Shown here: piece after piece, positions 3,368 to 50,151 of the stretch
Position numbering within the stretch: position 1 is the stretch's first letter
Layout of the letters: each line of letters begins with the position of its first letter
Assembly (NCBI GenBank): GCA_009837085.1
Contig: VXUF01000048.1
Location: 14,111 to 78,110 of the forward strand
Reading direction: 5' to 3'
DNA length: 64,000 bases
Source of the DNA: Holophagales bacterium
GTDB taxonomy: Bacteria; Acidobacteriota; Thermoanaerobaculia; Multivoradales; Multivoraceae
Notes under the pieces: generated by a model
Seen by the model: only the letters and a program-made list of their open reading frames with translations
What the model was told of the DNA's origin: nothing
The model's database searches: none
Made by a program: the position numbers and the translations under genes

Positions 3368-3377
3368 CGATGCGCTT

Positions 3378-3455
3378 CACACTGGGTGCGCCGGCGTCCC
3401 CGCCGGCTGCCGCCGAAGGCGGCCAGAGAGACGCGCCGGCCTAAGGGCCGGCGTC
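3378..3455 (+). repeat. Hairpin repeat copy R3 (full long form), intergenic
   Basis: cacactgggtgcgccggcgtccccgccggc / tgccgccgaaggcggc / cgccggcctaagggccggcg gives three consecutive hairpins (A, B, C). Confidence 0.9.
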
Positions 3456-3478
3456 CAACACGACCACGAGAGAGCACC

Positions 3479-27419: not shown

Positions 27420-29315
27420 ATGGGCGGCCCCGAATCGAACCCCGATCTCGTGCGTGAGACGCGCACGGCCGACGACGGCCGCGAGCTCGTGTTCTGGCGC
27501 GACACCAGCTTCGCCGGCACCGTGCCGACAATGTTCTGGAGCCGCGTCGAGAAGTACGGCGACCGCATCGCGATGCGGGAGAAGGACTTCGGCATTTGGC
27601 AGGACGTCTCCTGGCGCACCTTCGGCGAGAAGGCGCGCCACACGGGGCTGGCGCTGCGGTCGCTCGGCTTCGGCAAGGGCGACGTCGCCTGCATCCTCTC
27701 CAACACGATCACCGAGTGGATGTTCGCCGACATGGGGGTGCTCGGCGCCGGCGGCGTGTGCGCCGGGATCTACCCGACGGACGCGGCCGAGCAGGTGGAC
27801 TACCTGGTCAACGACTCGGGCTGCAAGGTGATGTTCGTCGAAGACGAGGAGCAGCTCGACAAGGTGCTCGAGGTGCGCGAGAAGTGCCCGACGCTCGAGC
27901 AGATCGTCATCTTCGACATGGAGGGCCTGCGGGACTTCGAAGATTCGCGGGCCATGAGCTACGACGACCTGCTCGCGCTCGGCCGCGAACAGGACGAGCT
28001 CCACCCCGAGGCCTGGGCCGAGTGCCTCGAGCTGGCGAGGCCCGAGGACCTCGCGATCCTCGTCTACACCTCCGGCACCACCGGGCCTCCGAAGGGGGCG
28101 ATGATCAGCCACCACAACCTCGTGTTCCAGTGCGTCAACGCCCCGCACGTCCTCTCGCAGAACGAGGACGACGAGCGCATGGCCTTCCTGCCGTTGTGCC
28201 ACATCGCCGAGCGGATCTTCGTCTACGGTTCGCTCTACACCGGCACGAAGCTGAACTTCGTCGAGAACCCGGAGACGGTGCCCGAGAACGCTCAGGAGAT
28301 CCAGCCGACGCTGTTCTTCTCGGTGCCGCGCGTGTGGGAGAAGTTCTACTCGGCCATCAGCATCGCCCTCTCCGACGCCACCTCCTTGCAAAAATGGGCC
28401 TACGAAAAGGCGATCGGGATCGGGTTCAAGCGAGCGGACAAACGCCTCGCGGGCGAGAAGCCGGGGGCGGTCCTGGAGCTCGCCTACCGCGTCGGCGATG
28501 CGCTCGTGCTGCGCAACATTCGCAGGTTCCTGGGCCTCGACCGCTGTCGCTGGATCGGCACCGGGGCCGCGCCGATCTCACCCGATCTGATCCGCTGGTA
28601 TCTCGCACTCGGCATCGACATGGTGGAGGGCTACGGCCAGACCGAGAACACCGGCATCGCCTCCATCCTGGAGCCGGGCGAGATCAGGCCCGGCACCGTC
28701 GGCCGTTCCGTTCCCTACGGCGAAATCAGGATCTCCGATGAGGGCGAGATCCTGATCCGCGGAGAGTTCGTCTTCATGGGCTACCTCAACCAGCCGGAGA
28801 AGACGGCCGAGACGATTCGTGACGGGTGGCTTCACACCGGCGACGTCGGCGAGATCGACGACGACGGCTTCCTCAAGATCACCGACCGCATGAAGGACAT
28901 CATCATCACGGCCGGCGGCAAGAACATCACCCCGAGCGAGATCGAGAACCAGCTCAAGTTCTCGCCCTACATCGCCGACGCGGTGGTGATCGGCGACAAG
29001 CGCAAGTTCCTGACGTGTCTCGTGATGATCGACCACGACAACGTCGTCAAATACGCTCAGGATCATCATGTGCCCTTCACCAACTACCAGAGCCTCTGCG
29101 CGGCGGAGAAGATCGTCGAGCTGATCCAGGCTGAGGTGGAGGCCGTCAACGCGAAGTTCGCGCGCGTCGAGCAGGTGAAGAAGTTCCGCCTGATCGACCA
29201 GGAGCTGACCCCCGAGGACGACGAGCTCACGCCGACGATGAAGCTCAAGCGCAAGTTCGTGAACGAGAAGTACCGACCCCTGATCGATTCGATGTACGGA
29301 GGACAGCAAGCATGA
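27420..29315 (+). CDS. AMP-dependent long-chain acyl-CoA synthetase (FadD-like)
   Basis: 631 aa from ATG 27420 (ggaggtgagg SD). AMP-binding motif YTSGTTGPPKGA, GYGQTE, GWLHTGDVG and the C-terminal KLKRKF motif. Confidence 0.9.
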   Translation: MGGPESNPDLVRETRTADDGRELVFWRDTSFAGTVPTMFWSRVEKYGDRIAMREKDFGIWQDVSWRTFGEKARHTGLALRSLGFGKGDVACILSNTITEWMFADMGVLGAGGVCAGIYPTDAAEQVDYLVNDSGCKVMFVEDEEQLDKVLEVREKCPTLEQIVIFDMEGLRDFEDSRAMSYDDLLALGREQDELHPEAWAECLELARPEDLAILVYTSGTTGPPKGAMISHHNLVFQCVNAPHVLSQNEDDERMAFLPLCHIAERIFVYGSLYTGTKLNFVENPETVPENAQEIQPTLFFSVPRVWEKFYSAISIALSDATSLQKWAYEKAIGIGFKRADKRLAGEKPGAVLELAYRVGDALVLRNIRRFLGLDRCRWIGTGAAPISPDLIRWYLALGIDMVEGYGQTENTGIASILEPGEIRPGTVGRSVPYGEIRISDEGEILIRGEFVFMGYLNQPEKTAETIRDGWLHTGDVGEIDDDGFLKITDRMKDIIITAGGKNITPSEIENQLKFSPYIADAVVIGDKRKFLTCLVMIDHDNVVKYAQDHHVPFTNYQSLCAAEKIVELIQAEVEAVNAKFARVEQVKKFRLIDQELTPEDDELTPTMKLKRKFVNEKYRPLIDSMYGGQQA

Positions 29316-30571
29316 CCGATAGACACCTGGGACCGTCCGCAGTAGAAACTGGGTGCGCCGGCGTCCCCGCCGGCATCCGGCGCGAAGCGCCGGCTTCCGG
29401 ACCTGTCAATGCGCTGGCGGTCGCTTGCTTGTTGCTTGGCGCCGTCCTGCCGGGATGCGGGAGCTCCGATCCCGAGACCTCGGACGCGGCCGGGGAGATC
29501 GTGCTCGGCACCTACACCGACCTGTCCGGTCCGGCCGCGGCCATCGGTGTCGGCAGCATCAACGCGGCGCGAATGATCTTCGATGCCGTGAACGAGGATG
29601 GCGGCATCCACGGCCGCCAGATCCGCTTCATCGTCGAGGACAATCAGTACCAGGTGCCTCGCGCCGTTCAGGCGGCCAACAAGCTGATCCACCGCGACCG
29701 GATCTTCGCCATGGTGGGCGCCCTCGGGACGCCGATGAACAACGCCGTCATGACCAGCCAGTTCGAGGCGGGCGTTCCGAACATCTTCCCGCTCTCGGGC
29801 GCGCGTTCGATGGCGGAACCGCTGCATCGGCTGAAGTTCGCCGGTGTCTCCACCTACTACGACCAGATGCGCGCCGCCATCAAGTACTTCGTCGAGGAGA
29901 GGGGCAAGGAGCGCATCTGCACCATGACCCAGGACACCGACTACGGAACCGAGATGACCGACGCGGCGAACGATCAGCTCGGCGAGATGGGGCGGGAGGT
30001 CATCGACTCGACGGCCCACAGGCCTCTCGACACCGACTTCAGCGCGGCGATCCTCAAGCTCCGGCAGGCCGACTGCGACCTGATCGTGCTCGGAACGATC
30101 ATCGGCGACACGATCCTGGCGATCTCGGCGGCACGGGGGATCGACTGGGACGTCGACTTCGTCGGCCCGATCGCGGCGTTCGAGTCCGAGGTCGCGGAGG
30201 CGGAGGGCGGTGTGACCAACGGCTTCTTCGCGATGACGTCGTTCGAGTTCCCCTACGCCGATCATCCCAGCCAGGAGGTCCGCGACTTCCTCGCCGGCTA
30301 CGAGGAACGCTACGGCCAGGAGCCCAACACCGGCTCGCTCCTGGGCTGGTTGGTCGCCGACTTCACGGTCAGGGCTCTACGCGACGCCGGGCCGGATCTC
30401 ACGGTCGATTCGCTGGTCGCCGCGATCGAGTCGATCGACGACTACCAGGACATCTTCGGCGGCCCGGTCCTGAGCTTCGGGCCGGAGAAGCGGATCGGCA
30501 CGGACGAGTCGTTCCTCGCCGAGGTACAGGACGGACGCTGGGTACGCGTGACCGAGAACCTGTCCTACTGA
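29312..30571 (+). CDS. ABC transporter substrate-binding protein (Leu/Ile/Val-binding, Peripla_BP_6-like), lipoprotein-like
   Basis: 419 aa. ATG 29312 overlaps the upstream stop (ATGA). The h-region is LAVACLLLGAVLPGC. No alternative in-frame start lies after repeat R6, so the repeat is translated in the n-region. Confidence 0.85.
   Translation: MTDRHLGPSAVETGCAGVPAGIRREAPASGPVNALAVACLLLGAVLPGCGSSDPETSDAAGEIVLGTYTDLSGPAAAIGVGSINAARMIFDAVNEDGGIHGRQIRFIVEDNQYQVPRAVQAANKLIHRDRIFAMVGALGTPMNNAVMTSQFEAGVPNIFPLSGARSMAEPLHRLKFAGVSTYYDQMRAAIKYFVEERGKERICTMTQDTDYGTEMTDAANDQLGEMGREVIDSTAHRPLDTDFSAAILKLRQADCDLIVLGTIIGDTILAISAARGIDWDVDFVGPIAAFESEVAEAEGGVTNGFFAMTSFEFPYADHPSQEVRDFLAGYEERYGQEPNTGSLLGWLVADFTVRALRDAGPDLTVDSLVAAIESIDDYQDIFGGPVLSFGPEKRIGTDESFLAEVQDGRWVRVTENLSY
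29348..29400 (+). repeat. Hairpin repeat copy R6 (short form) inside the 5' coding region of the SBP gene
   Basis: aactgggtgcgccggcgtccccgccggcatccggcgcgaagcgccggcttccgg, translated as TGCAGVPAGIRREAPASG. Confidence 0.85.
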
Positions 30572-30613
30572 CGCGGGCCTCGATCGCCCACGGACGTCTC
30601 CCGGCCTGCTCGG

Positions 30614-31909
30614 CTACTCGCCGCCGGCGGTGGTCTCAGTCGCTCGACCGCGTCCCTGCCGCGTGGGCGGCTCCCCGTCGCTGTAGACGCAGGAGATGAA
30701 GCCCATCAGCATCTCGTCGGTTGACATGGGGCCGAAGACGACGTCGCGGTCCGGGTTGAAGCCCCAGCGTTCCGCCTCCTCCGGCGAGTTGTCGAACCAC
30801 ATGTCGATCCGCAGGCGGCTGCCCTTGGGTAGCACCTTGGGCTCGGAGTACCAGTAGATCTCCTGCCAGTCGAAATCCCAGTCGGGTACATGGAGGATCT
30901 GCTCCTCGCTGCCGTCGGGATAGAAGACGGTGTACTTCGCCTCGCGGCCGCGCATGTGCATGTGGGGGAGCATGCCGAGGATCGTCACTTCCTGTTCGAA
31001 GGTGCGCTCGGCGGTGTCGTGCCAGTAGGCGTGGCGGGCCGGAATCTCGAACTCGTAGTTGCTGATCGGGAAGAAGTGGACCGGGTGTGTGACCGGCCTG
31101 GTCGCGAACTTGAGCGCGATCGATGACTGGTCCCAGCCGCCGCTGCCGGGGCCCGGCTCCTTGTGGTAATGCAGGTCGAAGGTGAGCGTGGCGCCGACCT
31201 CGAGCAGTGAGCCGTAGCCCTCGGGCCAGACATGGGGAGGCGACCCGGAGGTGGCGCCGCCGAGGAAGTGGCCGTCGCCGCGGGTCTCTTCGTCGTTCGG
31301 CCCCTTGACGAAGATGTTGAAGTGGTGGACTAGTTCGCTGCCGCGGCGGAACTCGATCTCCTGCACCCACTTGTCCTCGGGCAGGAGGTCCGGCGTCAGG
31401 ACCAGACGGTGCTTGGTGTAGATGTCCTTGATGTCGTCCTCGACGTAGTAGGGCTCGGGCATCTTGAGCACCAGGTCGGGGTCGGTGAACACCCAGCCGT
31501 CGTCGTCGGGCCACTGGATCGGTGCCGGACCGTCTTCCGGCCGGCCCGGTTGCGCGCCCGCCTCGACCCAGCGCCTGATCGTCGCGATCTCCCCGTCGGT
31601 CAGGCCGCGCTCGTTCCTGAACACGCCGTCGAAGTGCTCGGAGGCGTCCCAGGGCGGCATCTCCTTGGAGGCCGTCATGCGGACGATGGCGCGCGCCCAG
31701 GGCCGGGCTTCCTCGTAGGTCGTGAGCGACATCGGCACGCCGCCCCGGTAGATCTTGCTGCCCGAGGGCCGGTGACACTCCTGGCAGTTCTGCTGCAGGA
31801 TGGGCAAGACATCCTCGTAGAATGTCGGCCCTTCCGCCTCAGCGGCGCCGTGGGCGGCCGCGGCAAAGACCAGGCAGAGCGCAAAACCAACCAGGCGTCG
31901 ACTCGTCAT
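30614..31909 (-). CDS. Monoheme cytochrome c fused to a copper type II ascorbate-dependent-monooxygenase-like (PHM/DBH-like) domain, exported
   Basis: 431 aa. Signal peptide, then CQECH (31772-31786). LVHHFNIF and LHYH resemble CuH-site histidines. LPHMHMRG resembles the HxH of the CuM site, and STDEMLMGF resembles the CuM Met context. Confidence 0.7.
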   Translation of the reverse strand: MTSRRLVGFALCLVFAAAAHGAAEAEGPTFYEDVLPILQQNCQECHRPSGSKIYRGGVPMSLTTYEEARPWARAIVRMTASKEMPPWDASEHFDGVFRNERGLTDGEIATIRRWVEAGAQPGRPEDGPAPIQWPDDDGWVFTDPDLVLKMPEPYYVEDDIKDIYTKHRLVLTPDLLPEDKWVQEIEFRRGSELVHHFNIFVKGPNDEETRGDGHFLGGATSGSPPHVWPEGYGSLLEVGATLTFDLHYHKEPGPGSGGWDQSSIALKFATRPVTHPVHFFPISNYEFEIPARHAYWHDTAERTFEQEVTILGMLPHMHMRGREAKYTVFYPDGSEEQILHVPDWDFDWQEIYWYSEPKVLPKGSRLRIDMWFDNSPEEAERWGFNPDRDVVFGPMSTDEMLMGFISCVYSDGEPPTRQGRGRATETTAGGE

Positions 31910-31940
31910 CGCTACCCTCCTGCAGAACCGGTTCGGATCC

Positions 31941-34562
31941 GTGCGAGCTTACCGCAGCCGTTGGGCCCGTGGAGCTGCCGCACTGGCCCTCATCGTCGGT
32001 CTGGCAGGCGGTCGCACACTGGGTGCGCCGGCGTCCTCGCCGGCTGCCGCCGCAGGCGGCCAGGTAAACGCGCCGGCCGCAAGGCCGGCGACCGCTGCCG
32101 ACAGCGCCCAGGAGGCCGCCGGGCCGGACGCGGACGACTACCAGGCCGCCGCCGCACTGGTCGAAGGCAACCTGCTGGCCCTGCTGCGCAACGCGGACGT
32201 CACCCCGCACTGGCTCGCTGCCGACCTGGGCACGCCAGGCTTCTGGTACGGCCGCGACGGCGACTCCGGCCCGGAGCTCGCGATCTTCGACCTGGAGACG
32301 CAATCGCGCCGGCCCGCCTTCGACCATGCCCGGATGGCTGCCGCGATCTTCGAGGCGCTGACCGCCGCTGACGCGCCGACCGGGGAGCGAGACAAGGCGA
32401 GCCTCGAAGGGCTCCTGGGCCTCTCGCTCTCGAGTGATCTGGCAACGCTGACCGCCCGCCACGGCGCCCATCGCGTCACCTGCTCGGTGGCCGATTTCGG
32501 CTGCGCCGCGGCGGCGATCACGCCGCCCGAGCCCGGCCTGCTGCCGTCGCCGGACGGCGCCCGCGCGGCCTTCACACGCGACGACAACCTGTTCTGGCGC
32601 GATCTCAAGAACGGCTTGGAGGCTGGCCTCACGCACGACGGCAAGCCGTACTTCTCCTACGGCAAGTGGCCCGATTCCTCGCTGCTGACGGTGGTCGCGA
32701 GGAAGACGGGATTACGGCAGCCGCCGTACCTGTCGAGCTGGTCGCCGGATAGCCGCTACCTGCTCGCGCCGCGCATCGACGAGCGGCTGCTCGAGGCGGT
32801 GCCCTTCGTCGAGTGGGTGCCGACCGACGGCAGCCGTCGGCCGGTCGTGCACCTGCTGCGCGAGCCGGTCGCGGGCGACGAGGACGAGATGGGCGTCGGC
32901 TGGTTCCTGTTCGACACGGAGGAGGGCGGACGGGTCCAGGTCGAGCTCGATGGCGCTTCGCTCCCTGAAGGGATCGACACCCCTGGGCTCGGCGGCGGCG
33001 TCATCGGCTGGGACCTGGAGCGGAACCGTCTCTACATGCTGGGGTCCGCCTACGCCGGCAAGAGCGCCGCCCTGGTCGCCGTCGACGTCGAGTCGGGCAA
33101 GGCCACGCCGGTGGTGTGGGAGACGAACGAAACGCGGGTCGAGGCGAACACGCACATGTACAACCGGCCCAACGTCCGCCTGGTGCGCGGCCCGAACGAC
33201 GAACGGCGGGTGCTCTGGTACTCGGACCGCACCGGCTGGGGGCACCTCTACCTGTACGAGCTGGCCGGCGACGACACGGCCGATCTCGTAGGCACGGTGA
33301 CCGCGGGCGACTGGACGGTGCTCGACATCATCCACGTCGACGAGGGCGGCCAGCAGGTTTACTTCACGGGCGGCGGCCGCGAGCCCGGCGATCCGTACCT
33401 GCGCCATCTCTACCGCGCGTCGTTCGATTCCGGCTCGCTCGGTGGCGGCGAGGTCACGCTGCTGACCGCGAACGAGGCCGACCACCACTTCGAGCCGGCG
33501 CCGGTGCCGATGATGCAGGTCCTGTTCGGCCTCGCTCCGCCGCCGCCGCGGATCCGGCCCGATCTCGGGGTCTTCCTCGACACGTACTCGACCGTCGACC
33601 GGCCGCCGGTCACCGTGCTGCGTTCGACCAAGGACGGCAAGGTGCTCGCCGAGATCGAGCAGGCGGACGCTTCCAGGCTGTTCGAGGCGGGGTTCGTGCC
33701 GCCCGAGCGCCGCGCCTTCGTCGCCGCCGACGGCGAGACGGAGGTGTACTCGGTCTACTTCGCGCCGCAGCGCGAGGTCGATGGCCACCGTCACCCGGTG
33801 ATCGACGCGGTCTACGGAGGCCCCCAGGTGTTCGTGGCGCCGCGGAACTTCGTGCAGGCCGTGGGCGCGCGCAACCCGGCGGCAGAGCCGGCGCTGGCCC
33901 GCCTCGGCTTCGCGGTCGTCGTCACGGACGGCCGCGGCACGCCGGGCCGCTCGAGCGCGTTCCGCGACGCGGGCTACCCGGAGTTCACGCAGGTCGGCGT
34001 CGACGATCACGTGGCGGTCATCCGCCAGTGGGCGGAGCTCAAGCCCGAGATGGACCCGGAGCGGGTCGGCATCTACGGCTGGTCCTGGGGCGGGACGTTC
34101 ACCGCCCAGGCGATCCTCAGCCGGCCGGACTTCTACGACGTGGCCGTCTCCGGCGCCGGCGTCTACGACTACGCCGCGATCTACCCCGGCTTCGAGGCGT
34201 TCACAGGCCCGGCGGTCTACTCCGACGGCGGCAGGACCCGGACCCGCCCCGACGAGGCACCGAAGAGCTGGGAACCGCTCGACATCACCGCAATGGCCGG
34301 GAACCTCGAGGGGCGACTTCTCATCGTCTACGGCGACATGGACGAGAACGTGCCGCCGGCCCAGGCCTTCCGGCTCGTCGACGCGCTGATCCAGGCGAAC
34401 AAGCCCTACGACCTGCTCTACCTTCCGAACCGCAATCACGGCGGCGGCGCCGAGCCGTACGCCCTGCTCCGTACATGGGACTACTTCGTCGAGCACCTGC
34501 TCGGCGTCCAGCCGCCGCGCGACGTGACCTTCGAGGTCAAGCCGGCGGCGATGGTGTTCTGA
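31941..34562 (+). CDS. S9 family serine peptidase (dipeptidyl-peptidase IV / prolyl oligopeptidase-like), exported
   Basis: 873 aa. N-terminal propeller region, nucleophile GWSWGG, then DENVP and NRNHGG for Asp/His. Signal peptide MRAYRSRWARGAAALALIVGLAGG is followed by repeat-encoded TLGAPASSPAAAAGG. Confidence 0.9.
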   Translation: MRAYRSRWARGAAALALIVGLAGGRTLGAPASSPAAAAGGQVNAPAARPATAADSAQEAAGPDADDYQAAAALVEGNLLALLRNADVTPHWLAADLGTPGFWYGRDGDSGPELAIFDLETQSRRPAFDHARMAAAIFEALTAADAPTGERDKASLEGLLGLSLSSDLATLTARHGAHRVTCSVADFGCAAAAITPPEPGLLPSPDGARAAFTRDDNLFWRDLKNGLEAGLTHDGKPYFSYGKWPDSSLLTVVARKTGLRQPPYLSSWSPDSRYLLAPRIDERLLEAVPFVEWVPTDGSRRPVVHLLREPVAGDEDEMGVGWFLFDTEEGGRVQVELDGASLPEGIDTPGLGGGVIGWDLERNRLYMLGSAYAGKSAALVAVDVESGKATPVVWETNETRVEANTHMYNRPNVRLVRGPNDERRVLWYSDRTGWGHLYLYELAGDDTADLVGTVTAGDWTVLDIIHVDEGGQQVYFTGGGREPGDPYLRHLYRASFDSGSLGGGEVTLLTANEADHHFEPAPVPMMQVLFGLAPPPPRIRPDLGVFLDTYSTVDRPPVTVLRSTKDGKVLAEIEQADASRLFEAGFVPPERRAFVAADGETEVYSVYFAPQREVDGHRHPVIDAVYGGPQVFVAPRNFVQAVGARNPAAEPALARLGFAVVVTDGRGTPGRSSAFRDAGYPEFTQVGVDDHVAVIRQWAELKPEMDPERVGIYGWSWGGTFTAQAILSRPDFYDVAVSGAGVYDYAAIYPGFEAFTGPAVYSDGGRTRTRPDEAPKSWEPLDITAMAGNLEGRLLIVYGDMDENVPPAQAFRLVDALIQANKPYDLLYLPNRNHGGGAEPYALLRTWDYFVEHLLGVQPPRDVTFEVKPAAMVF
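32015..32090 (+). repeat. Hairpin repeat copy R7 (long form) inside the S9 peptidase 5' coding region
   Basis: cacactgggtgcgccggcgtcctcgccggc tgccgccgcaggcggc ... cgccggccgcaaggccggcg. Confidence 0.9.
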
Positions 34563-34568
34563 CCACGC

Positions 34569-36350
34569 GTGCAGGTCGTCGCACACTGGGTGCGCCGGCG
34601 TCCTCGCCGGCTGCCGCCGGAGGCGGCGGAAAGAACGTGCCGGCCGCAAGGCCGGCGAACGCTTTGCCTGCTCGTCGCGCTCGCCCTCGGTTGCACCTCG
34701 GCGCCCGACGGCGACGCCGACCTGATCCTCACCAACGGCCGCATCTACACCCTCGAAGCCGCGCAGGCCTGGGCCGAAGCGGTCGCGATCGCCGGCGGCG
34801 AGTTCACGTTCGTCGGCTCGACCGCGGAGGCGCTGGAACGGCGCGGCCCGAACACCGAAGTCCGCGACCTCGAAGGCCGCATGGCGATGCCGGGCATCTA
34901 CGACGCCCACGTTCATCCCGTCCTCGGCGGCACCGAGGTGCTGCTTCAGTGCCTGTTCCCGCCCACCGCGGGACCGGCGGAAATCGAGGAGACCCTGTCG
35001 GCCTGCGTCGCGGCCGATCCCGCCGCGGCCTGGATCGAGGGCGGGCGCTGGACGAGCAACTTCTTCGTCGAGCACGACATCGGCTCGCCGCGCGAGTGGC
35101 TGGACCGGTTCTCGGGCGACGTGGCGATCAGCCTGGCGGACGACACCGGCCACAACCGCTGGGTGAACAGCAAGGCCCTGGAACTGGCCGGCATCGACGC
35201 CGGCACGGTGGTCGAAGGCGGCGAGGTCGTGCTGGACGAGGCGACCGGCGAGCCGAACGGCCTGCTGCTCGAAGCGGCGATGTACCCGGTGTTCCAGGCG
35301 ATCCCCGACAAGACGGCGGAGCAGTTCCTGCGCGCCGCCCGCGAATCGATCCGGACGGCGAACCGCTTCGGCATCGTCGGCGTCAAGGAGGCGGGCGATG
35401 CGGGCACCGGCGTCGCGGCCTACAAGGCACTGGCCGACGAGGGCGCCCTGACCGTCCACATGGCGGCCTCGATCGCCATTCCGCTGGTCGCCGGCTCGCT
35501 CGATCTCGACGTCGACGCCCTGGAGCGGCTGCGCGAGGAGAACCGGGCCGCCAACCTCGACGCCGACCACGTGAAGATCTTCCTCGACGGCGTGCCGTCC
35601 GTCGCGCGGACGGCGGCGATGCTCGACGACTACGAGCCGGAAGTGCCGGGCGGACCGGCTCACAACGGCGAACTGCTGGTGCCGCCGGAAGCGCTCCACG
35701 CCTGGCTCCAGCAGCTCGACGCGCTGGGCGTCACGGTGAACATCCACACGGCGGGCGACCGGGCGGTCCGGGTCGCGCTCGACGCGATCGAGTTCGCGCG
35801 CGAACAGAACGGCGACTCCGGGCTGATGCACCAGCTCGCCCATTCCGGTTTCGTGGCGGTCGACGACGTGCCGCGTTACGCCGAACTCGGCGCGGTCGCG
35901 GACATGTCGCCGGCCATCTGGTACCCGTCCCTGATCTCCGACTCCATCCGCGCCGCCATCGGCGACCGCGCCGACCGCTCCTGGCCGGTGCGGGAGTTGC
36001 TCGACGCCGGCGCGCACGTCATCGTCGGCTCGGACTGGCCGGCCGTCATCCCGGACATGAACCCCTGGCCCGGCATGGAGGCGCTGGTCACCCGCGCCGA
36101 CCCCTGGGGCGGGTATCCGGGGACGCTGGCGCCGGAGCAGGCGGTGAGTCTGGAAGAAGCGATCGAGCTCTACACGCTCGCGGGCGCCCGGCTGCTCGGC
36201 GTCGAGTCGCGGGCCGGCACGATCGCCGCCGGCAAGTCAGCCGACCTGATCGTGCTCGATCGCAACCTCTTCGAGGTGCCGATCGAGGACGTCAGCGAGA
36301 CGAGCGTCGAAATGACTGTCTACGCAGGAGGAATCGTCCATGAGAAGTAG
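34569..36350 (+). CDS. Amidohydrolase family protein (Amidohydro_3 / YtcJ-like metal-dependent hydrolase), exported
   Basis: 593 aa. PGIYDAHVHP (HxH), FLDGV, NIHTAGD, HSGF and GSDWP motifs. h-region LCLLVALALGC. The start is GTG 34569, or the in-frame GTG 34590 that lies inside repeat R8. Confidence 0.88.
   Translation: MQVVAHWVRRRPRRLPPEAAERTCRPQGRRTLCLLVALALGCTSAPDGDADLILTNGRIYTLEAAQAWAEAVAIAGGEFTFVGSTAEALERRGPNTEVRDLEGRMAMPGIYDAHVHPVLGGTEVLLQCLFPPTAGPAEIEETLSACVAADPAAAWIEGGRWTSNFFVEHDIGSPREWLDRFSGDVAISLADDTGHNRWVNSKALELAGIDAGTVVEGGEVVLDEATGEPNGLLLEAAMYPVFQAIPDKTAEQFLRAARESIRTANRFGIVGVKEAGDAGTGVAAYKALADEGALTVHMAASIAIPLVAGSLDLDVDALERLREENRAANLDADHVKIFLDGVPSVARTAAMLDDYEPEVPGGPAHNGELLVPPEALHAWLQQLDALGVTVNIHTAGDRAVRVALDAIEFAREQNGDSGLMHQLAHSGFVAVDDVPRYAELGAVADMSPAIWYPSLISDSIRAAIGDRADRSWPVRELLDAGAHVIVGSDWPAVIPDMNPWPGMEALVTRADPWGGYPGTLAPEQAVSLEEAIELYTLAGARLLGVESRAGTIAAGKSADLIVLDRNLFEVPIEDVSETSVEMTVYAGGIVHEK
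34582..34657 (+). repeat. Hairpin repeat copy R8 (long form) inside the amidohydrolase 5' coding region
   Basis: cacactgggtgcgccggcgtcctcgccggc tgccgccggaggcggc ... gccggccgcaaggccggc, translated as HWVRRRPRRLPPEAAERTCRPQGRR. Confidence 0.9.
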
Positions 36351-38130
36351 AAGCGGCCGCCGCCGTCTGCGGCTGCCACACACTGGGTGCGCCGGCGTCC
36401 CCGCCGGCATCCGCTTTGCCCTCCTCGCGCTGACCATCGCCGCCCAACCCGCCGTCGCCCAGTTCCAGGACGGCGAGCCGGCGCCGTCGCGCAACGACCC
36501 GGCCGACACCATCCTCGACGGCGGCAACGTCTACACGCCCGACGGCTGGGCAGAGTCCATCGCGATCCGCGACGGCGTCATCGTCGCGGTCGGCAACAGC
36601 GCTTCCGTCGCCGCGTTCCGCGCCGACGCCACCGAGTTCGTCGACCTGGCGGGCCGGACCGTCTTCCCCGGCTTCCACGACGTCCACGTGCATCCGTTGA
36701 TCGCGGGCATGCAGGAGTTCTCGTGCCGGCTGCCTCCGGGCGCGACACCGGACATCATCAGCGAGTCGGTCGGCGAGTGCGCTTCAAAGGCCGAGCCGGG
36801 GGAGTGGATCAACGGCGGCAACTGGGTGGCGGCGGTGTTCGAGCCCGGCCAGCAGACCAGGCAGTTCCTCGACGCCGTGTCGCCGGACAACCCGGTCTTC
36901 CTCTACGACGAGTCCCACCACAGCGTCTGGGTCAACACGATGGCGCTGGAAGTGGCCGGCATCGACCGCGACACGCCGGACCCGGAGGGCGGGATCATCG
37001 AGCGCGACCAGGACGGCAACCCGACCGGCCTGCTGCGCGAGACGGCCAACGCGATGGTGGCTTCGGTGATTCCTCCGGCCTCGGACGCGCGGAAGATGCA
37101 GGGCATGAAGATCGCCACCGACGAGATGCTGGCCCACGGCATCACCTCGTTCACCGTCGCCTACGCGAACTCGTGGCAGCTCGGCGCGCTGGCGCAACTG
37201 GCGCGTGAGGGAACGTTGAAGCAGCGGGTGCGGGCCTGCGTCGCCTGGGCGCACAATCCGGCGCTCGCCGATGCAGCCGAGTCCCAACTCGCGATCCGGG
37301 CGACCTACGCGAGCGAGCGACTGAAGGTCGACTGCGTGAAGATCATGCTCGACGGCGTACCGACGGAGAGCCACACCGCGGCGATGCTCGCGCCCTACGA
37401 GGACTCGACCGGCGAGGACGATCCGCGGCCCAAGCTCGGGCTGCTCCTGGTGCCGCAGGAGGCGCTGAACGACGCGGTCACGGCGTTCGACCGCCAGGGG
37501 CTGCACGTCAAGATGCACGCCGCCGGCGACGGCGCGGTGCGGGCCGCGATCGACGCCGTCGCGGCGGCCCGGGAACGGAACGGCTTCGGCGGCCCGATGC
37601 ACGACGTCGGCCACAGCACCTTCGTTGACCCGGCCGACATTCCCCGGCCGCGCGAACTGGGGATGGCCTGGGAGTTCTCGCCCTACATCTGGTTCCCCAC
37701 GCCGATGGCGGCGATCGACATCCGCAAGGCGGTCGGCGACGAGCGGATGAAGCGATGGGTGCCGATCAGGGACGCCCTCGAGACGGGCGCCCTCGTGGCG
37801 GCCGGCTCGGACTGGCCGGTGGTGCCTCTGGTCGACCCGTGGCTCGCGGTCGAGACGATGGTGACCCGGCAGGTTCCCGGCGGCAGCGAGGAGACGCTCG
37901 GCCTCCAGGGACAGGTGAGGCTCGAGGACGCTCTTCGCATCATGACCTGGAACGGCGCGCGCCTGATGGGCCAGGACGACAAGGTCGGCACGATCGAGGT
38001 TGGGAAGGAGGCCGACCTCGTCGTGACCTCGCAGAACCCGTTCGACGTCGAGCCGACCCAGGTCCACCGGACGAAGGTGGAGATGACGTTCATCGCCGGC
38101 GAGAGGGTGTACACCGCCGGTGCGAACTAG
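36340..38130 (+). CDS. Amidohydrolase family protein (Amidohydro_3), exported; paralog of the preceding gene
   Basis: 596 aa. Strong aggagga SD 7 nt before ATG 36340, overlapping the upstream gene by 11 nt. PGFHDVHVHP, MLDGV, KMHAAGD, HSTF and GSDWP. Signal region RRRLRLPHTGCAGVPAGIRFALLALTIAAQPAVAQ. Confidence 0.9.
   Translation: MRSRSGRRRLRLPHTGCAGVPAGIRFALLALTIAAQPAVAQFQDGEPAPSRNDPADTILDGGNVYTPDGWAESIAIRDGVIVAVGNSASVAAFRADATEFVDLAGRTVFPGFHDVHVHPLIAGMQEFSCRLPPGATPDIISESVGECASKAEPGEWINGGNWVAAVFEPGQQTRQFLDAVSPDNPVFLYDESHHSVWVNTMALEVAGIDRDTPDPEGGIIERDQDGNPTGLLRETANAMVASVIPPASDARKMQGMKIATDEMLAHGITSFTVAYANSWQLGALAQLAREGTLKQRVRACVAWAHNPALADAAESQLAIRATYASERLKVDCVKIMLDGVPTESHTAAMLAPYEDSTGEDDPRPKLGLLLVPQEALNDAVTAFDRQGLHVKMHAAGDGAVRAAIDAVAAARERNGFGGPMHDVGHSTFVDPADIPRPRELGMAWEFSPYIWFPTPMAAIDIRKAVGDERMKRWVPIRDALETGALVAAGSDWPVVPLVDPWLAVETMVTRQVPGGSEETLGLQGQVRLEDALRIMTWNGARLMGQDDKVGTIEVGKEADLVVTSQNPFDVEPTQVHRTKVEMTFIAGERVYTAGAN
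36379..36413 (+). repeat. Hairpin repeat copy R9 (short/truncated) inside the signal-peptide coding region
   Basis: cacactgggtgcgccggcgtccccgccggcatccgc. Confidence 0.85.
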
Positions 38131-40993
38131 GGCGGAGCCGGCCTTTCGGCCGGCGCGTGCTTCTGGCCGCCTTCGGCGGCAGCCGGCGGGGACGCCGGCG
38201 CACCCAGTCTGTGCGGCGCGAGGTGCTGGCTGGCTCGTCCTTGGGATCGTGCTTCGGTTGCTCGCGGCCGCGCCCGTCGCGGCCGCCGAGCCGGACGCGC
38301 GCGCCCTCTACCGCCTCCATTGCGGCGGCTGTCACGGGCAGGCGCTCGAAGGCGGGCTCGCGGAGCCGCTGATCAAGTCGGACTGGCGGTTCGGCCGGGA
38401 CGGCTTCTCGGTGGAGAGCAACATCCGGCACGGCATCCCGGGCACCGACATGCCGGGCTACCTCGGCGAACTCTCGAACGAGGAGATGGCGGCGCTCGTC
38501 GAGCTGATCTACAGCCTGCAGACGGAGGAGGTCTGGATCGCGAAGCCGCTGCCGCCGGCGGTCGAGACGGAGCACTACACGCTCCGGGTCGAGTACCTGG
38601 CCACCGACGAACTGGAGAACCCCTGGGGCATCGAGTTCACGGGTCCGTCGGAAGCGCTGATCTCCGAGGACGCGGGGTACCTGATCCGGTACCGGGACGG
38701 CAGGGTGGATCCGGAGCGGATTACGGGGCTGCCGCCGGTTGACCTCGCGACCTCGACCGGCGGGCTGATGGACATCGCGCTCGATCCGGACTATGCGGAG
38801 AACGGATGGGTCTACGCGGCGATCAGCCACTCGGAAGATCCGAACGACCGCTACGCCCGCGGGCTGACCCGGATCATCCGCGGCCGGGTCGACGGCAACC
38901 GCTGGCGGGACACGGAGTACCTCTTCCGGCTCGATCCCGGGTACCACCTGCCCGACAGCAAGCACTGGGGCGGCCGCCTGCTGTTCGACCGCGACGGCTT
39001 CCTCTACTTCTCGATCGGCGACATGAGCGCGGCGATGAACTCGCAGGATCCGGCCATGCCGTCGGGCAAGGTGTTCCGCATCCGGCCCGACGGCGGCATC
39101 CCGGACGACAACCCCTTCGCCGGCCAGGACGGAGCGCTCGGCGCGGTGTTCACTCTCGGCAACCGGAACGTCCAGGGCATGGCGCAGCATCCGGAGACCG
39201 GCGGGATCTGGGCCGCCGAGCACGGTCCGCGCGGCGGCGACGAACTGAATCTCCTCGTCAAGGGCCGGAACTACGGCTGGCCGGTCGTGACGTTCGGCGT
39301 CAACTACGACGGCTCGGTGATCAGCGACCGGACCCGCGCCGACGGCATCGAGCCCCCGGTCGTCGAGTGGACGCCGGCGCTCGCCGTCGGCCCGATCGAG
39401 TTCGTGGCGAGCCCGGCTTTCGAGCAGTGGCGAGGCAACCTGCTGGTCGGTTCGCTCTCCTTCGAGGAACTCCGGCGCCTGGAGCTCGACGGCGGCCGGG
39501 TCACTCGCCAGGAACTCCTGTTCAAGGGCCATGGCCGCATCCGCGACATCAAGACCGGCCCCGACGGCGCGATCTACCTGCTCCTCAACAACCCCGGCGC
39601 CCTGGTCCGCCTGACGGCCGCCGAGACGACCAACGTCACCGCGATCGAACACGCGGCCCTCATCCCGATGACTTCGCGCACGCCGCTCGTGCTGGAGGAT
39701 CACACCCTGGTCGTCCGCGACGAACGGATCGCCGACATCTGCCCCAGCAGCCCAGGCTGCACGCCGGCGGATGCCCGCGTCGTCGACGGCGCCGGCAAGT
39801 TCGTCATCCCGGCGCTCGCCGACATGCACAACCACTTCGATGGCTTCGCCTGGGACGGCACGGACGCCTCACGCATCCGGATGCGCGACCAGAACCTGAG
39901 GCAGTACGTCATGTTCGGGGTCGCCACGGCGAGGGACCCCTCCGGCGGCCCCCTGGTCCTGGAGGCGCGCGACGCGATCGAGCGCGGCGAGCTGTTCGGG
40001 CCGCGGATCTTCGTTTCGTCGCCGCTGATGGACGGCGACCCGCCGCTCTTCCCGATTCCGCGGACGTTCACGGAGCCCGGGGAGGCGGCTGACTTCGTCC
40101 GCCGGAGCGCGGCGGAAGGGTACGACCTGGCCAAGGTCTACACCACGCTCAGCCTCAAGGTGTTCGACGCGGTGATGGCGGCCGCCGCGGAGGTGGGCCT
40201 TACGGTCGCGGCCCACGTGCCGATCCGCGTGCCCCTGGAGCACGCCCTGGAGCGCGGGCTGCGCTCGATCGAGCACCTGACCGGCTACGACGTCGCCTGC
40301 GCGGCCCCGCACGTGAAGATGGAGCCGGTCCGGCAGGACATCTACCAGGGCTGGGCGTGGTGCTCGCCGGAGAAGGTGGCCGAGCTGGCGGCGCTGACCG
40401 CGAAGTACGAGGTCTGGAACGTGCCGACCCTCGCCCTGTGGGACAGCACGGTGACCGAGTTCGACCGGCCGCAGCGCGACGCGGGCGAGATCGGCAAGTA
40501 CGAGCACCCGACGACGCCCGGCGGCATCGAGTGGCTCTACACCCTGTACGGACCGCGCGAGCGGGCGGGGATCACCGGGACGCGCTCGGTGCGGCTCGGC
40601 CTGGTCAAGGCGCTCCACGACGCGGGCGCGCCGCTCCTCGTCGGCACCGACATCTCGGCCACCGGCTATACCGTCCACCGGGAGATGGGCCTCTTCGTCG
40701 AGGCCGGCCTGACGCCGTACCAGACGCTGGAAGCCGCGACCTCGGAGGCGGCCCGCTACATGGACCGGGAAGGCGAGTTCGGGGTGCTCGCCACGGGCGC
40801 GCGGGGCGACGTTCTGCTCCTGGACGCGAACCCGCTCGACGACATCGGCAACGCACGTAGGATCCGCGGCCTGATGTTCCGCGACAGGTGGTGGTCGAAG
40901 CAGGCGATCGACGCCGAGCTGGAAGCGATCCAGCGCGAGTACGCGGAAGACGAGGCGCGTCTGCGGGAACTGGGGATCGGACCGCGGCCGTGA
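38120..40993 (+). CDS. Three-domain fusion: cytochrome c + PQQ-dependent sugar (glucose/sorbosone) dehydrogenase + amidohydrolase, exported
   Basis: 957 aa. CGGCH at about aa 68-72. The sGDH-like six-blade region runs about aa 150-500 (ENPWGIEF, GGLMDIALDP, HWGGRLLFDRDGFLYFSIGD, GKVFRIRPDG, GNRNVQGMA, EHGPRGGDELN, GRNYGWP). The amidohydrolase runs from about aa 505 (ADMHNHF, AAHV, IEHL, VGTD). GTG 38120 overlaps the upstream gene. Confidence 0.85.
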   Translation: MRTRAEPAFRPARASGRLRRQPAGTPAHPVCAARGAGWLVLGIVLRLLAAAPVAAAEPDARALYRLHCGGCHGQALEGGLAEPLIKSDWRFGRDGFSVESNIRHGIPGTDMPGYLGELSNEEMAALVELIYSLQTEEVWIAKPLPPAVETEHYTLRVEYLATDELENPWGIEFTGPSEALISEDAGYLIRYRDGRVDPERITGLPPVDLATSTGGLMDIALDPDYAENGWVYAAISHSEDPNDRYARGLTRIIRGRVDGNRWRDTEYLFRLDPGYHLPDSKHWGGRLLFDRDGFLYFSIGDMSAAMNSQDPAMPSGKVFRIRPDGGIPDDNPFAGQDGALGAVFTLGNRNVQGMAQHPETGGIWAAEHGPRGGDELNLLVKGRNYGWPVVTFGVNYDGSVISDRTRADGIEPPVVEWTPALAVGPIEFVASPAFEQWRGNLLVGSLSFEELRRLELDGGRVTRQELLFKGHGRIRDIKTGPDGAIYLLLNNPGALVRLTAAETTNVTAIEHAALIPMTSRTPLVLEDHTLVVRDERIADICPSSPGCTPADARVVDGAGKFVIPALADMHNHFDGFAWDGTDASRIRMRDQNLRQYVMFGVATARDPSGGPLVLEARDAIERGELFGPRIFVSSPLMDGDPPLFPIPRTFTEPGEAADFVRRSAAEGYDLAKVYTTLSLKVFDAVMAAAAEVGLTVAAHVPIRVPLEHALERGLRSIEHLTGYDVACAAPHVKMEPVRQDIYQGWAWCSPEKVAELAALTAKYEVWNVPTLALWDSTVTEFDRPQRDAGEIGKYEHPTTPGGIEWLYTLYGPRERAGITGTRSVRLGLVKALHDAGAPLLVGTDISATGYTVHREMGLFVEAGLTPYQTLEAATSEAARYMDREGEFGVLATGARGDVLLLDANPLDDIGNARRIRGLMFRDRWWSKQAIDAELEAIQREYAEDEARLRELGIGPRP
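38131..38213 (-). repeat. Hairpin repeat copy R10 (long form, inverted) inside the 5' coding region of the fusion gene
   Basis: The reverse complement reads cacagactgggtgcgccggcgtccccgccggc tgccgccgaaggcggc ... gccggccgaaaggccggc. In the gene frame it is translated as AFRPARASGRLRRQPAGTPAHPV. Confidence 0.9.
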
Positions 40994-46654: not shown

Positions 46655-47442
46655 GACATGAGCGCCGCGCCGGCGACGGCACCTGGCTGCCTCCGATCGA
46701 TCCGCCGTCGAAGATCATCGCCGTCCACCTGAGCTACCGCTCGCGCTGCGTCGAGTACCAGATGGAGCGCATCCCGGAGGTGCCGTCCTACTTCATGAAG
46801 CCCACCTCCTCGCTGAGCGCCCACGAGGCGCCGGTGGCGCGGCCGCGCGGCTGCCGCTTCCTGAACTACGAGGGGGAGTTCGCGGTCGTCATCGGCCGGC
46901 GGGCGATCGGCGTGGCGATCGAGGAGGCGCTCGACTATGTCCGCGGCTACACGCTGGTCAACGACTTCGGCATCCATGACTTCCGGCACGCGGACCGCGG
47001 CTCGATGCTGCGGGTCAAGGGCCAGGACGGCTTCGGGCCGATGGGCCCGGCCCTGGTCGACGCCGGCGACGTCGACCCGAACGACCTGACACTGCGCACC
47101 CTGGTCAACGGCGAGGTGGTGCAGGAGGGGAACACGGGCGAGGACCTCCTGTTCTCGTTCGCGTACCAGGTCGCCGACCTGAGCCGGCTGATCACGCTCG
47201 AACCCGGCGACGTCATCATGACCGGCACGCCGGCGAACTCGCGGCCGGTCGAGCCGGGCGACGTGGTCGAGGTGCAGTGCGACGAGATCGGCACCCTGCG
47301 CAACCCGATCGTCGAGCTGGACCGGGACCTGCAGCCGGTCGGCGAGCAGCCCCAGGTGACCGGCAACACGCTGCACGTCGCGCTCTGCGTGCCGGAGGAC
47401 GAGGCGGAGGTCGTCGCGGCGGCGGAGGCGGCGGGCTCGTGA
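46651..47442 (+). CDS. Fumarylacetoacetate hydrolase (FAH) family protein (HpaG/2-oxo-dienoate hydratase/isomerase-decarboxylase type)
   Basis: 263 aa. YFMKPTSS, NYEGEFAVVIG, NDFGIHDF..KG.DGF.PMGP and PGDVIMTGTP motifs. ATGA overlap with the upstream stop. Confidence 0.9.
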   Translation: MRHERRAGDGTWLPPIDPPSKIIAVHLSYRSRCVEYQMERIPEVPSYFMKPTSSLSAHEAPVARPRGCRFLNYEGEFAVVIGRRAIGVAIEEALDYVRGYTLVNDFGIHDFRHADRGSMLRVKGQDGFGPMGPALVDAGDVDPNDLTLRTLVNGEVVQEGNTGEDLLFSFAYQVADLSRLITLEPGDVIMTGTPANSRPVEPGDVVEVQCDEIGTLRNPIVELDRDLQPVGEQPQVTGNTLHVALCVPEDEAEVVAAAEAAGS

Positions 47443-50004: not shown

Positions 50005-50068
50005 CCGGCCTTCGGCCGGCGGCTGTGTTGGTTCGGAAGGCCGACGAGGACGTCGGCGCACCCAGTAG
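50005..50068 (-). repeat. Hairpin repeat copy R13 (divergent long form), head-to-head with R14
   Basis: The reverse complement reads ctactgggtgcgccgacgtcctcgtcggc...ccggccgaaggccgg. Hairpin A arms have changed to gccgac/gtcggc. Confidence 0.8.
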
Positions 50069-50077
50069 CACCGCCAG

Positions 50078-50151
50078 CACCCACTGGGTGCGCCGGCGTC
50101 CTCGCCGGCTGCCGCCGAACGCGGCTGGAGAACGCCGCCGCGAAGCGGCGA
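50078..50151 (+). repeat. Hairpin repeat copy R14 (long form)
   Basis: cacccactgggtgcgccggcgtcctcgccggc tgccgccgaacgcggc ... cgccgcgaagcggcg. Confidence 0.85.

What the first reader, a model, noticed from the sequence alone, without database searches (positions are those of the whole stretch)
29312..38213. Repeat copies are translated inside the N-terminal targeting regions of five consecutive exported-protein genes, in three frames and both orientations
No alternative in-frame start exists downstream of the repeat in the SBP gene (R6), amidohydrolase 2 (R9, strong SD at ATG 36340) or the triple fusion (R10). The repeat must therefore be translated. It reads TGCAGVPAGIR in R6 and R9, HWVRRRPRRLPPEAAERTCRPQGRR in R8, TLGAPASSPAAAAGG in R7 just after the signal peptide, and RLRRQPAGTPAHPV in R10 (inverted). 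In the amidohydrolase 1 frame the repeat supplies an in-frame GTG (34590) and an Arg-rich segment directly before the hydrophobic h-region. That segment would be a ready-made positively charged n-region. The element may be tolerated in, or even exploited for, signal-peptide n-regions and linkers.
Basis: partly seen in the sequence, partly recalled or inferred. Interest (0 to 1): 0.6.

Follow-up and report, generated by a model that had tools for sequence, protein, structure and literature searches.

The report
Hairpin repeats translated inside signal peptides
A selfish, hairpin-forming DNA repeat of sponge-associated Acidobacteriota has landed just after stop codons in a tightly packed operon, where it is read in frame as extra residues at the start of five exported proteins, mostly in the signal peptide; this is a well-supported example of a known behaviour rather than a new kind of system.

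Summary
Five copies of a GC-rich repeat (head CACTGGGTGCGCC plus 1-3 hairpins) lie inside the 5' ends of five + strand genes for exported proteins, in three frames and both orientations.

Close relatives (sponge-associated Thermoanaerobaculia / Ca. Multivorans MAGs, about 84-98% nucleotide identity over aligned segments) show empty and differently filled alleles at every junction. Where the conserved start codon lies upstream of the repeat, all 21 length variants differ by multiples of three and stay open. This covers four of the five junctions plus an aldehyde dehydrogenase N-terminus. At intergenic sites only 9 of 26 variants do (Fisher p = 1.3e-6). So the repeats are translated.

The family is a REP element with its own RAYT transposase: at least 8 relatives carry a RAYT gene flanked by inverted copies. 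Most copies are intergenic. In 67 of 170 measured copies the head lies 0-30 nt after a stop codon. With overlapping stop/start codons, that position falls in the next gene's N-terminus.

In relatives, 9 of 13 genes with an unavoidably translated 5' copy have a signal-peptide-like hydrophobic segment right after it. Signal-peptide n-regions therefore look like a safe harbour.

Tolerance is well supported. Exploitation is unproven; the only hint is that the repeat's GTG may serve as a start in amidohydrolase 1.

Closest known: intragenic REPs and Rickettsia RPEs.

The parts
29312..30571 (+). Substrate-binding lipoprotein gene (Peripla_BP_6). Its ATG overlaps the upstream stop as ATGA.
   Evidence: Pfam E 2.9e-66. 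The ATG is conserved in all relatives.
29328..29419 (+). R6: short-form repeat (head, hairpin 1 and a GGCGCGAAGCGCC hairpin). Net +81 nt (27 codons) in the signal-peptide n-region.
   Evidence: Empty allele MTDRHRSLTVACMLLGAVLAGC in 10 relatives. The same insert is in L109. A different +141 nt in-frame insert is in L111.
31941..34562 (+). S9 / DPP-IV-type peptidase gene with a signal peptide.
   Evidence: Pfam Peptidase_S9 and DPPIV_N.
32010..32093 (+). R7: long-form repeat (3 hairpins). +84 nt (28 codons) directly after the h-region, read as an Ala/Pro/Gly-rich linker.
   Evidence: Absent in 10 relatives and shared with L155, a chromosome-level assembly.
34569..36350 (+). Amidohydrolase 1 (Amidohydro_3), lipoprotein-like signal. 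The start is GTG 34569 or GTG 34590.
   Evidence: Pfam E 1.4e-83. These are the only two in-frame starts after the in-frame upstream stop.
34571..34663 (+). R8: long-form repeat filling the whole space between the upstream stop (34560-34562) and the h-region. Its head supplies GTG 34590.
   Evidence: Relatives without it (L108, L109) start at a different GTG in another register. Lengths at this junction are not constrained to multiples of 3.
36340..38130 (+). Amidohydrolase 2 (Amidohydro_3). ATG with AGGAGG SD, overlapping the upstream stop by 11 nt.
   Evidence: Pfam E 1.1e-93.
36351..36416 (+). R9: short-form repeat (head plus hairpin 1). +60 nt relative to the empty allele, in the n-region.
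   Evidence: Seven allele lengths (211-511 nt between fixed anchor ends), all differing by multiples of 3 and all open from the conserved ATG.
38120..40993 (+). Cytochrome c + GSDH + amidohydrolase fusion gene. GTG overlaps the upstream stop by 11 nt.
   Evidence: Pfam. Empty allele MRTSLLVSVLLAVAPVAAA in L110.
38131..38241 (-). R10: long-form repeat in inverted orientation. About +111 nt in the n-region.
   Evidence: Seven allele lengths (197-356), all differing by multiples of 3. Relatives carry other subfamilies and orientations at the same junction. A contig of run X10 joins 38132 to 38267 with about 20 nt between, an empty-type allele.
47439..47500 (+). N-terminus of an aldehyde-dehydrogenase-like gene (GTGA overlap with the upstream stop) carrying a short-form repeat at 47445-47491. 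No signal peptide.
   Evidence: Inter-anchor lengths 15, 18, 30, 66, 69, all multiples of 3 and open.
3368..3473 (+). Intergenic control copy: a 106-nt insert between a stop and the next ATG.
   Evidence: Empty alleles have a 4-nt spacer. Variant lengths are 109, 110, 112 and 113, not constrained to multiples of 3.

Best explanation
The repeat is a REP-type element: a conserved single-stranded head followed by 1-3 GC hairpins. It is probably spread by a cognate RAYT (REP-associated tyrosine transposase) in sponge-associated Thermoanaerobaculia.

Copies accumulate within a few tens of nucleotides downstream of stop codons. In this operon the next gene's start codon overlaps or abuts that stop, so the preferred landing zone is the first 5-40 codons of the downstream gene.

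Only insertions and later length changes that keep the reading frame survive. The GC-rich palindrome usually carries no stop codon in any frame, so it can be read in any frame or orientation as an Arg/Ala/Gly/Pro-rich peptide.

In R6, R8, R9 and R10 the peptide lies in the n-region of a Sec or lipoprotein signal peptide, which would be cleaved off. In R7 it is a linker just after the h-region. The mature enzymes are therefore little or not at all changed.

Shown: the polymorphism, the frame constraint, the REP/RAYT association in relatives, and the stop-codon proximity.

Inferred: RAYT-driven mobility, cleavage of the extended signal peptides, and near-neutrality of the insertions.
For: 1. Empty and filled alleles exist at all five junctions in relatives at about 84-98% nucleotide identity over aligned segments, including chromosome-level assemblies.
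2. 21 of 21 length variants downstream of a conserved start are multiples of 3 and open, against 9 of 26 at intergenic junctions. Fisher p = 1.3e-6; binomial p = 1e-10.
3. The same junctions carry independent insertions of different subfamily, orientation and copy number.
4. Among 192 copies from relatives, 131 are intergenic and 5 internal, whereas 49% of random sites score as internal.
5. The head lies 0-30 nt after a co-oriented stop in 67 of 170 copies, against 0.8% of random sites.
6. Hairpin 1 shows compensatory changes at 4 of 7 pairs and no one-sided changes (three gapped cells in one shortened copy); hairpin 3 changes its whole stem between copies.
7. A RAYT gene (NCBIfam NF047646, 81.7 bits against a cutoff of 80; Pfam Y1_Tnp) is flanked by inverted copies of the repeat in a stereotyped layout in at least 8 relatives.
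8. 9 of 13 genes with an unavoidably translated 5' copy in relatives have a signal-peptide-like h-region right after it.
9. Predicted SD/start accessibility is about the same in filled and empty alleles at two of three junctions and higher in the filled allele at the third.
Against: There is no protein-level evidence: no proteomics, and no SignalP-type predictor was available, so export competence of the extended signal peptides is inferred.

The 21 variants are not all independent events, because some alleles derive from others.

The window's SBP allele has an unusual L-P-G-C lipobox, so that copy could be mildly impaired.

The preference for stop-proximal sites could reflect targeting, selection or both. 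This is unresolved.
Confidence: 0.8

Rival explanations
1. The repeats are untranslated leaders. Translation starts downstream of them at weak or non-canonical codons, or at the TTG/GTG codons inside the h-region, and the long ORFs are annotation artefacts. This is the published default view for REPs at 5' ends of ORFs (PMC3733652).
For: In-frame TTG/GTG codons exist after the repeat in R6 and R10. GC-rich sequence is open in most frames by chance. Di Nocera et al. argue that most N-terminal REPs are misannotations.
Against: A downstream start would put no constraint on insert length. Yet 21 of 21 variants are multiples of 3 at coding junctions, against 9 of 26 at intergenic ones. R9 has no downstream start at all. 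The downstream starts in R6 and R10 would leave 8-13 residue signal peptides with little or no n-region. Empty alleles show the conserved upstream start, with SD and stop overlap, to be the ancestral start.
Confidence: 0.05
2. The copies are exapted. They are kept because they supply a positively charged n-region or a start codon, or because their hairpins tune translational coupling, mRNA stability or export kinetics of the downstream exported enzymes.
For: J4 is occupied in 13 of 14 relatives and J5 in 9 of 12, by independently acquired versions. The commonest frame ends in Ile-Arg-Arg or Ile-Arg right before the h-region. The head gives an in-frame GTG plus Arg-rich stretch in R8 and in alleles of L110 and L114. 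REP hairpins near stop codons are reported to affect expression in E. coli (own knowledge: Liang, Rudd and Deutscher 2015; not found in the held library).
Against: Three frames and both orientations are used, giving unrelated peptides; some are neutral or acidic (R6 net about 0; the dehydrogenase copy net negative). Empty alleles with ordinary short signal peptides exist for every gene. The same element sits in cytoplasmic proteins and, mostly, in intergenic DNA. Start-region accessibility is little changed. Recurrent occupancy is equally explained by an insertion hot spot.
Confidence: 0.12
3. Assembly artefact or decaying pseudogenes: the repeats were mis-joined into gene starts by short-read assembly, or the genes are no longer functional.
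For: Unitigs of public runs break inside every repeat copy, so the assembly path through them had to be resolved.
Against: Identical filled alleles occur in independent MAGs from other samples, including chromosome-level assemblies (L155, L111, L120). Gene order matches the relatives. The ORFs are intact over 400-950 codons, with strong coding scores and 89-97% amino-acid identity for amidohydrolase 2 across species.
Confidence: 0.02

Closest known systems
REP / REPIN elements with RAYT transposases (Enterobacteria, Pseudomonas, Stenotrophomonas; survey in PMC3733652)
   Same: Short GC-rich hairpin repeats in high copy, mostly just downstream of genes. Hairpin stems are kept by compensatory change. 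A RAYT gene is flanked by inverted copies. Some copies lie inside ORFs, many at the N-terminus.
   Different: The head is CACTGGGTGCGCC, not a GTAG or CGTC tag. The element is modular, with up to three different hairpins. N-terminal copies here are shown to be translated, whereas the survey regarded most such cases as probable misannotation.
Rickettsia palindromic elements (RPE; Ogata et al. 2000, 2002, as summarised in PMC10969869)
   Same: A palindromic selfish repeat inserted in frame into functional protein-coding genes. It is present or absent among orthologues and is tolerated because it lands in permissive parts of the protein.
   Different: [quoted passage not shown] Here three frames plus the reverse strand are used. 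Copies concentrate at stop/start junctions and in cleavable signal peptides. There is no sequence relationship.
Mycobacterial interspersed repetitive units (MIRU; as described in PMC12548453)
   Same: A mobile repeat that settles at gene junctions inside operons in a way that preserves translation of the downstream gene.
   Different: A MIRU carries its own small ORF, coupled to the downstream start with a 4-nt overlap. Here no separate ORF is made and the repeat is fused into the downstream protein.
Naturally extended signal peptides (ESPR of autotransporters; long Tat n-regions) - own knowledge
   Same: 20-35 extra residues precede an otherwise ordinary h-region and cleavage site.
   Different: Those extensions are conserved, family-specific sequences. 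No ESPR family was reported by Pfam for these proteins, and no S/T-R-R-x-F-L-K motif is present. Here the extension is a polymorphic mobile-element remnant.

Membership tests
REP/RAYT (REPIN) elements | Short palindromic (hairpin) repeat dispersed in many copies | tested here: met
   14 copies in 64 kb. More than 107 loci across the clade hold the exact 27-mer. Depth over repeat bins is about 50-170 times that of the flanks. Long forms fold at -48 to -55 kcal/mol.
REP/RAYT (REPIN) elements | Predominantly extragenic, close to the 3' ends of genes | tested here: met
   131 of 192 copies intergenic and 5 internal, against 49% internal for random sites. The head is 0-30 nt after a stop in 67 of 170 copies.
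REP/RAYT (REPIN) elements | Cognate RAYT gene flanked by inverted copies of the same repeat | tested here: met
   NF047646 REP_Tyr_transpos, 81.7 bits against a cutoff of 80. Pfam Y1_Tnp, E 1e-7. Copies in opposite orientation flank the gene within about 30-230 nt upstream and 10-180 nt downstream in at least 8 relatives; homologues in other phyla lack them.
REP/RAYT (REPIN) elements | GTAG or CGTC tetranucleotide tag at one end of the hairpin (superfamilies of PMC3733652) | tested here: not met
   The consensus upstream of hairpin 1 is CaCACTGGGTGCGCC. GTAG occurs next to single copies only.
REP/RAYT (REPIN) elements | Stem maintained by compensatory substitutions | tested here: met
   4 of 7 pairs of hairpin 1 have both-sided changes and none has a one-sided change; three cells are gapped in one shortened copy. 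Hairpin 3 occurs with at least three unrelated stems.
RPE-like in-frame intragenic palindromes | Repeat lies in frame inside a functional ORF and is absent from orthologues | tested here: met
RPE-like in-frame intragenic palindromes | Copies encode one conserved peptide (single frame) | tested here: not met
   Three forward frames and the reverse strand are used.
MIRU-type junction elements | Element carries its own ORF whose ends overlap the flanking stop and start codons | tested here: not met
   At J1, J4 and J5 the frame runs from the conserved start through the repeat into the downstream protein without an internal stop or restart.
ESPR / Tat-type extended signal peptides | Conserved ESPR motif or twin-arginine S/T-R-R-x-F-L-K motif | tested here: not met
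   Pfam lists no ESPR family for the five proteins. Inspection of the N-termini shows no Tat consensus.

The most novel reading that the evidence does not exclude
In this clade, REP insertion is actively directed to the nucleotides just after stop codons. The copies in signal-peptide n-regions have become functional parts of the genes: they donate start codons and positive charge, and their hairpins set the strength of translational coupling or the pace of early elongation for exported enzymes. On this reading REP turnover is a routine way of retuning secretome expression between strains.
Probability: 0.12. Interest if true: 0.7.

Novelty: new variant of a known kind. Interest (0 to 1): 0.45.

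Why it matters
REPs at the 5' ends of ORFs are usually dismissed as annotation errors (PMC3733652). Here natural alleles from many related genomes act as a built-in frameshift test and show that such copies are really translated.

The result points to cleavable signal peptides, and N-termini at overlapping stop/start junctions, as places where selfish hairpin repeats can persist inside genes.

It matters for gene-start calling and signal-peptide prediction in REP-rich, high-GC genomes. It also offers a natural series of n-region extensions (about 5 to 100 residues) for testing what Sec and lipoprotein signal peptides tolerate.

It is not a new mechanism. It extends REP and RPE biology to another phylum and another protein context.

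Tried and rejected
- Rfam scan of the window at gathering thresholds: no family matched.
Copy number per genome and the RAYT in the window's own genome are therefore unknown. I used 107 repeat-bearing loci and syntenic loci from relatives instead.
- Target-site duplications: I looked at filled and empty pairs. Boundaries could not be placed precisely because the flanks and h-regions also diverge, so no claim is made.
- GGGGWSAS motif of acidobacterial TIRYT inverted repeats: the repeat's GGGGACGC differs at one fixed position, so it is not counted as a match.
- Tat-signal reading of the Arg-Arg pairs: rejected. There is no consensus motif and the empty alleles have a single Arg.
- RNA-seq evidence: the runs returned for an RNA query are of unknown library kind and are kept only as contigs. 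They confirm presence and allele polymorphism, not transcription or translation.
- Hairpins blocking initiation: mean unpaired probability of the SD-to-start region is 0.37 against 0.22, 0.50 against 0.50, and 0.26 against 0.28 in filled against empty alleles. No sequestration is indicated.
- Literature on REP effects on translation near stop codons: not found in the held library. It is cited from my own knowledge only.
Full report
**What is in the window.** The region is high-GC (about 70%). It holds the following genes (Pfam; ORFs):
- a substrate-binding lipoprotein gene (29312-30571);
- a divergent exported gene on the minus strand (30614-31909);
- an S9 peptidase (31941-34562);
- two Amidohydro_3 enzymes (34569-36350 and 36340-38130);
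- a cytochrome c + GSDH + amidohydrolase fusion (38120-40993).

The core TGGGTGCGCCGGCGTCCCCGCCGGC occurs 12 times in 64 kb with at most 3 mismatches, against 0 expected. Two further variants bring the total to 14. Full copies have a conserved head (CACTGGGTGCGCC) followed by up to three GC hairpins. Short copies keep the head and hairpin 1. Long forms fold at -48 to -55 kcal/mol as RNA. Rfam has no match.

Three of the genes start at codons that overlap the upstream stop: ATGA at 29312, an 11-nt overlap at 36340, and an 11-nt overlap at 38120. Amidohydrolase 1 starts 6 nt (GTG 34569) or 27 nt (GTG 34590, inside the repeat head) after the upstream stop.

Minor corrections:
- A repeat-free minus-strand gene interrupts the series.
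- In-frame TTG or GTG codons do exist after the repeat in R6 (29429, 29432) and R10 (38249, 38258), but they lie inside the hydrophobic core.

**Origin and relatives.** An exact 27-mer of the repeat is found in more than 107 loci. All belong to MAGs of Acidobacteriota labelled Thermoanaerobaculia, Holophagales or Candidatus Multivorans, and several come from sponge studies. Public sponge metagenomes hold the window almost word for word. A search with amidohydrolase 2 returned syntenic loci from about 17 related genomes at 89-97% amino-acid identity, some from chromosome-level assemblies. Nucleotide alignments to the window break exactly at the repeats.

**The natural frameshift test.** I extracted every junction between fixed anchors and read it in the frame of the downstream gene.

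- J1 (SBP): ten relatives have the ordinary lipoprotein signal MTDRHRSLTVACMLLGAVLAGC. The window and L109 have +81 nt. L111 has a different +141 nt insert a few codons further on.
- J2 (peptidase): the window and L155 have +84 nt right after the h-region. Other relatives differ by -6 or +6.
- J4 (amidohydrolase 2): seven allele lengths between fixed anchor ends (211, 226, 271, 298, 301, 316, 511). These run from an empty site (L119, MRSRFATLVLAAIVSQPALA) through a head remnant and one-hairpin and three-hairpin copies to two copies in opposite orientation.
- J5 (fusion protein): seven lengths (197-356), with different subfamilies and orientations in different lineages.

I also examined the aldehyde-dehydrogenase start at 47439, which carries a short copy and has no signal peptide. 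Its five inter-anchor lengths are 15, 18, 30, 66 and 69.

All 21 variants differ from the shortest allele by multiples of 3. All are open from the conserved start into the body of the protein.

Controls behave as chance predicts. These are the spacer after the stop at 3367 (a 106-nt insert into a 4-nt spacer), the convergent spacer at 7670, the leader at 1662, and J3, where the start is not fixed upstream of the repeat. Together 9 of 26 variants are multiples of 3. The contrast gives Fisher p = 1.3e-6.

Not all variants are independent events. Even so, a start codon downstream of the repeats would impose no such constraint. I therefore regard translation through the repeats as established short of protein data.

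**J3.** Relatives without the repeat use a GTG in another register (MPGRLLLVALAVAC). In the window and L122 the 79-nt longer junction brings GTG 34569 into frame and adds GTG 34590 from the repeat head. Either way hairpins 1-3 are translated. That the repeat supplies the start is possible but not shown.

**What the element is.** Head-anchored copies from relatives show a conserved head and hairpin 1, followed by interchangeable modules. In an alignment of 45 long copies, 4 of 7 pairs of hairpin 1 carry compensatory double changes and none a single-sided change (three cells are gapped in one shortened copy). Hairpin 3 appears with at least three unrelated stems.

Searching between inverted copies turned up a 216-aa ORF in L090. 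It matches Pfam Y1_Tnp and NCBIfam 'REP-associated tyrosine transposase' above its curated cutoff. A collection scan with it found homologues in the same clade. In at least 8 genomes the gene is flanked by copies in opposite orientation, within about 30-230 nt upstream and 10-180 nt downstream. These include the MAGs that are the window's closest relatives. Homologues in Verrucomicrobiota and Vicinamibacteria lack the repeat. This is the REP/RAYT arrangement described in PMC3733652. The element lacks the GTAG or CGTC tag of the two published superfamilies.

**Where copies live.** I trained a codon log-odds score on the window's long genes and classified 192 copies from 107 loci of relatives:
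- 131 intergenic;
- 10 in leaders;
- 32 possibly translated 5' ends;
- 14 unavoidably translated 5' ends;
- 5 internal.

Random sites in the same loci score as internal 49% of the time. The head lies 0-30 nt after the stop of a co-oriented gene in 67 of 170 cases, against 0.8% for random positions. Inverted copies sit with their 3' end equally close.

So the element's normal address is the first few tens of nucleotides after a stop codon. Where genes overlap, that address is the next protein's N-terminus.

**Why signal peptides.** The 14 unavoidable 5' copies fall in 13 genes. By my reading, 9 of these have a hydrophobic stretch (Kyte-Doolittle mean of at least about 2.0 over 11 residues) with a lipobox or A-x-A-like end directly after the repeat. 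One gene has two copies and another three in tandem. If about 30% of genes encode signal peptides, this enrichment has p of about 0.004; the 30% background is assumed, not measured.

The n-region is cleaved off, so insertions there leave the mature enzyme untouched. Cytoplasmic proteins can also carry a copy: the dehydrogenase here, and the dioxygenase at 49079-49165, which an earlier agent confirmed. So this is tolerance, not targeting to secreted proteins.

Predicted accessibility of the SD-to-start region is about the same in filled and empty alleles at J4 and J5 and higher in the filled allele at J1. This is consistent with hairpins that fold locally and do not block initiation.

**Reads.** Unitigs of four public sponge runs end inside each repeat, and summed depth there is about 50-170 times that of the flanks. 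One run contains a contig that joins 38132 to 38267 with about 20 nt between, an empty-type J5 allele, so the polymorphism also exists among natural populations. The library kind of the 'RNA' candidates is unknown, so I draw no conclusion about transcription.

**Comparison with the literature.**
- Intragenic REPs are known. The survey in PMC3733652 notes an excess at ORF N-termini but attributes most to misannotation.
- RPEs of Rickettsia are the classic in-frame palindromes (PMC10969869).
- MIRUs settle at operon junctions by carrying a coupled small ORF (PMC12548453).
- Coxiella QMITEs add terminal residues to some genes (PMC5896051).

I found nothing in the held library on REPs in signal peptides. 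The present case is thus a new family and a new context of a known behaviour, with unusually clean evidence for translation.

**Limits.**
- No proteomic, export or expression data exist.
- No signal-peptide predictor was available.
- The direction of each event (gain or loss) is not resolved.
- Whether stop-proximal placement reflects targeting or selection is open.

Noticed in passing
window 47439-47500: An aldehyde-dehydrogenase-like gene starts at a GTG overlapping the upstream stop (GTGA). It carries a short repeat copy as an 18-residue N-terminal extension. Relatives have 0, 1, 5, 17 or 18 extra codons, always in frame. It has no signal peptide.
   Followed up: yes
L090:2943-3593 (minus strand) and L254-L272: A RAYT gene (REP-associated tyrosine transposase) is flanked by inverted copies of the repeat in a stereotyped layout in at least 8 genomes of the clade.
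   Followed up: yes
window 29441-29449: The window's SBP allele has the lipobox L-P-G-C. All relatives, including L109 with the same repeat insert, have L-A-G-C. Pro at -2 is unusual for a lipobox.
   Followed up: no
L112:5784-8416, also L155, L117, L118: Several relatives carry an extra gene of about 800 codons with a signal peptide (MSKRIMFIA...) between the S9 peptidase and amidohydrolase 1. It is absent from the window.
   Followed up: partly
L002 (minus strand, repeat head at about 1400 of the reversed locus): One long ORF runs through an inverted repeat copy. Its upstream part begins MAPIVIGTRATPLARIQ... The repeat may have fused two adjacent genes or replaced a stop/start junction; neither half was identified here.
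   Followed up: no
L099 and L091 (coordinates): Lipoprotein-like genes carry three (L099) and two (L091) tandem repeat copies in the n-region, all in the TGCAGVPAG frame.
   Followed up: partly
window 3368-3473 and L176, L177, L182: The 106-nt intergenic insert ends in GAGAGAG, GGGAGAG or GGAGGAG 5-7 nt before the downstream ATG. The insert appears to bring a Shine-Dalgarno-like sequence with it.
   Followed up: no
window 50040-50110: Two copies lie head to head, 45 nt apart, in the spacer before a gene whose N-terminus reads MQPTRRDLLARSAAVA (Tat-signal-like). This is a REPIN-like doublet.
   Followed up: no
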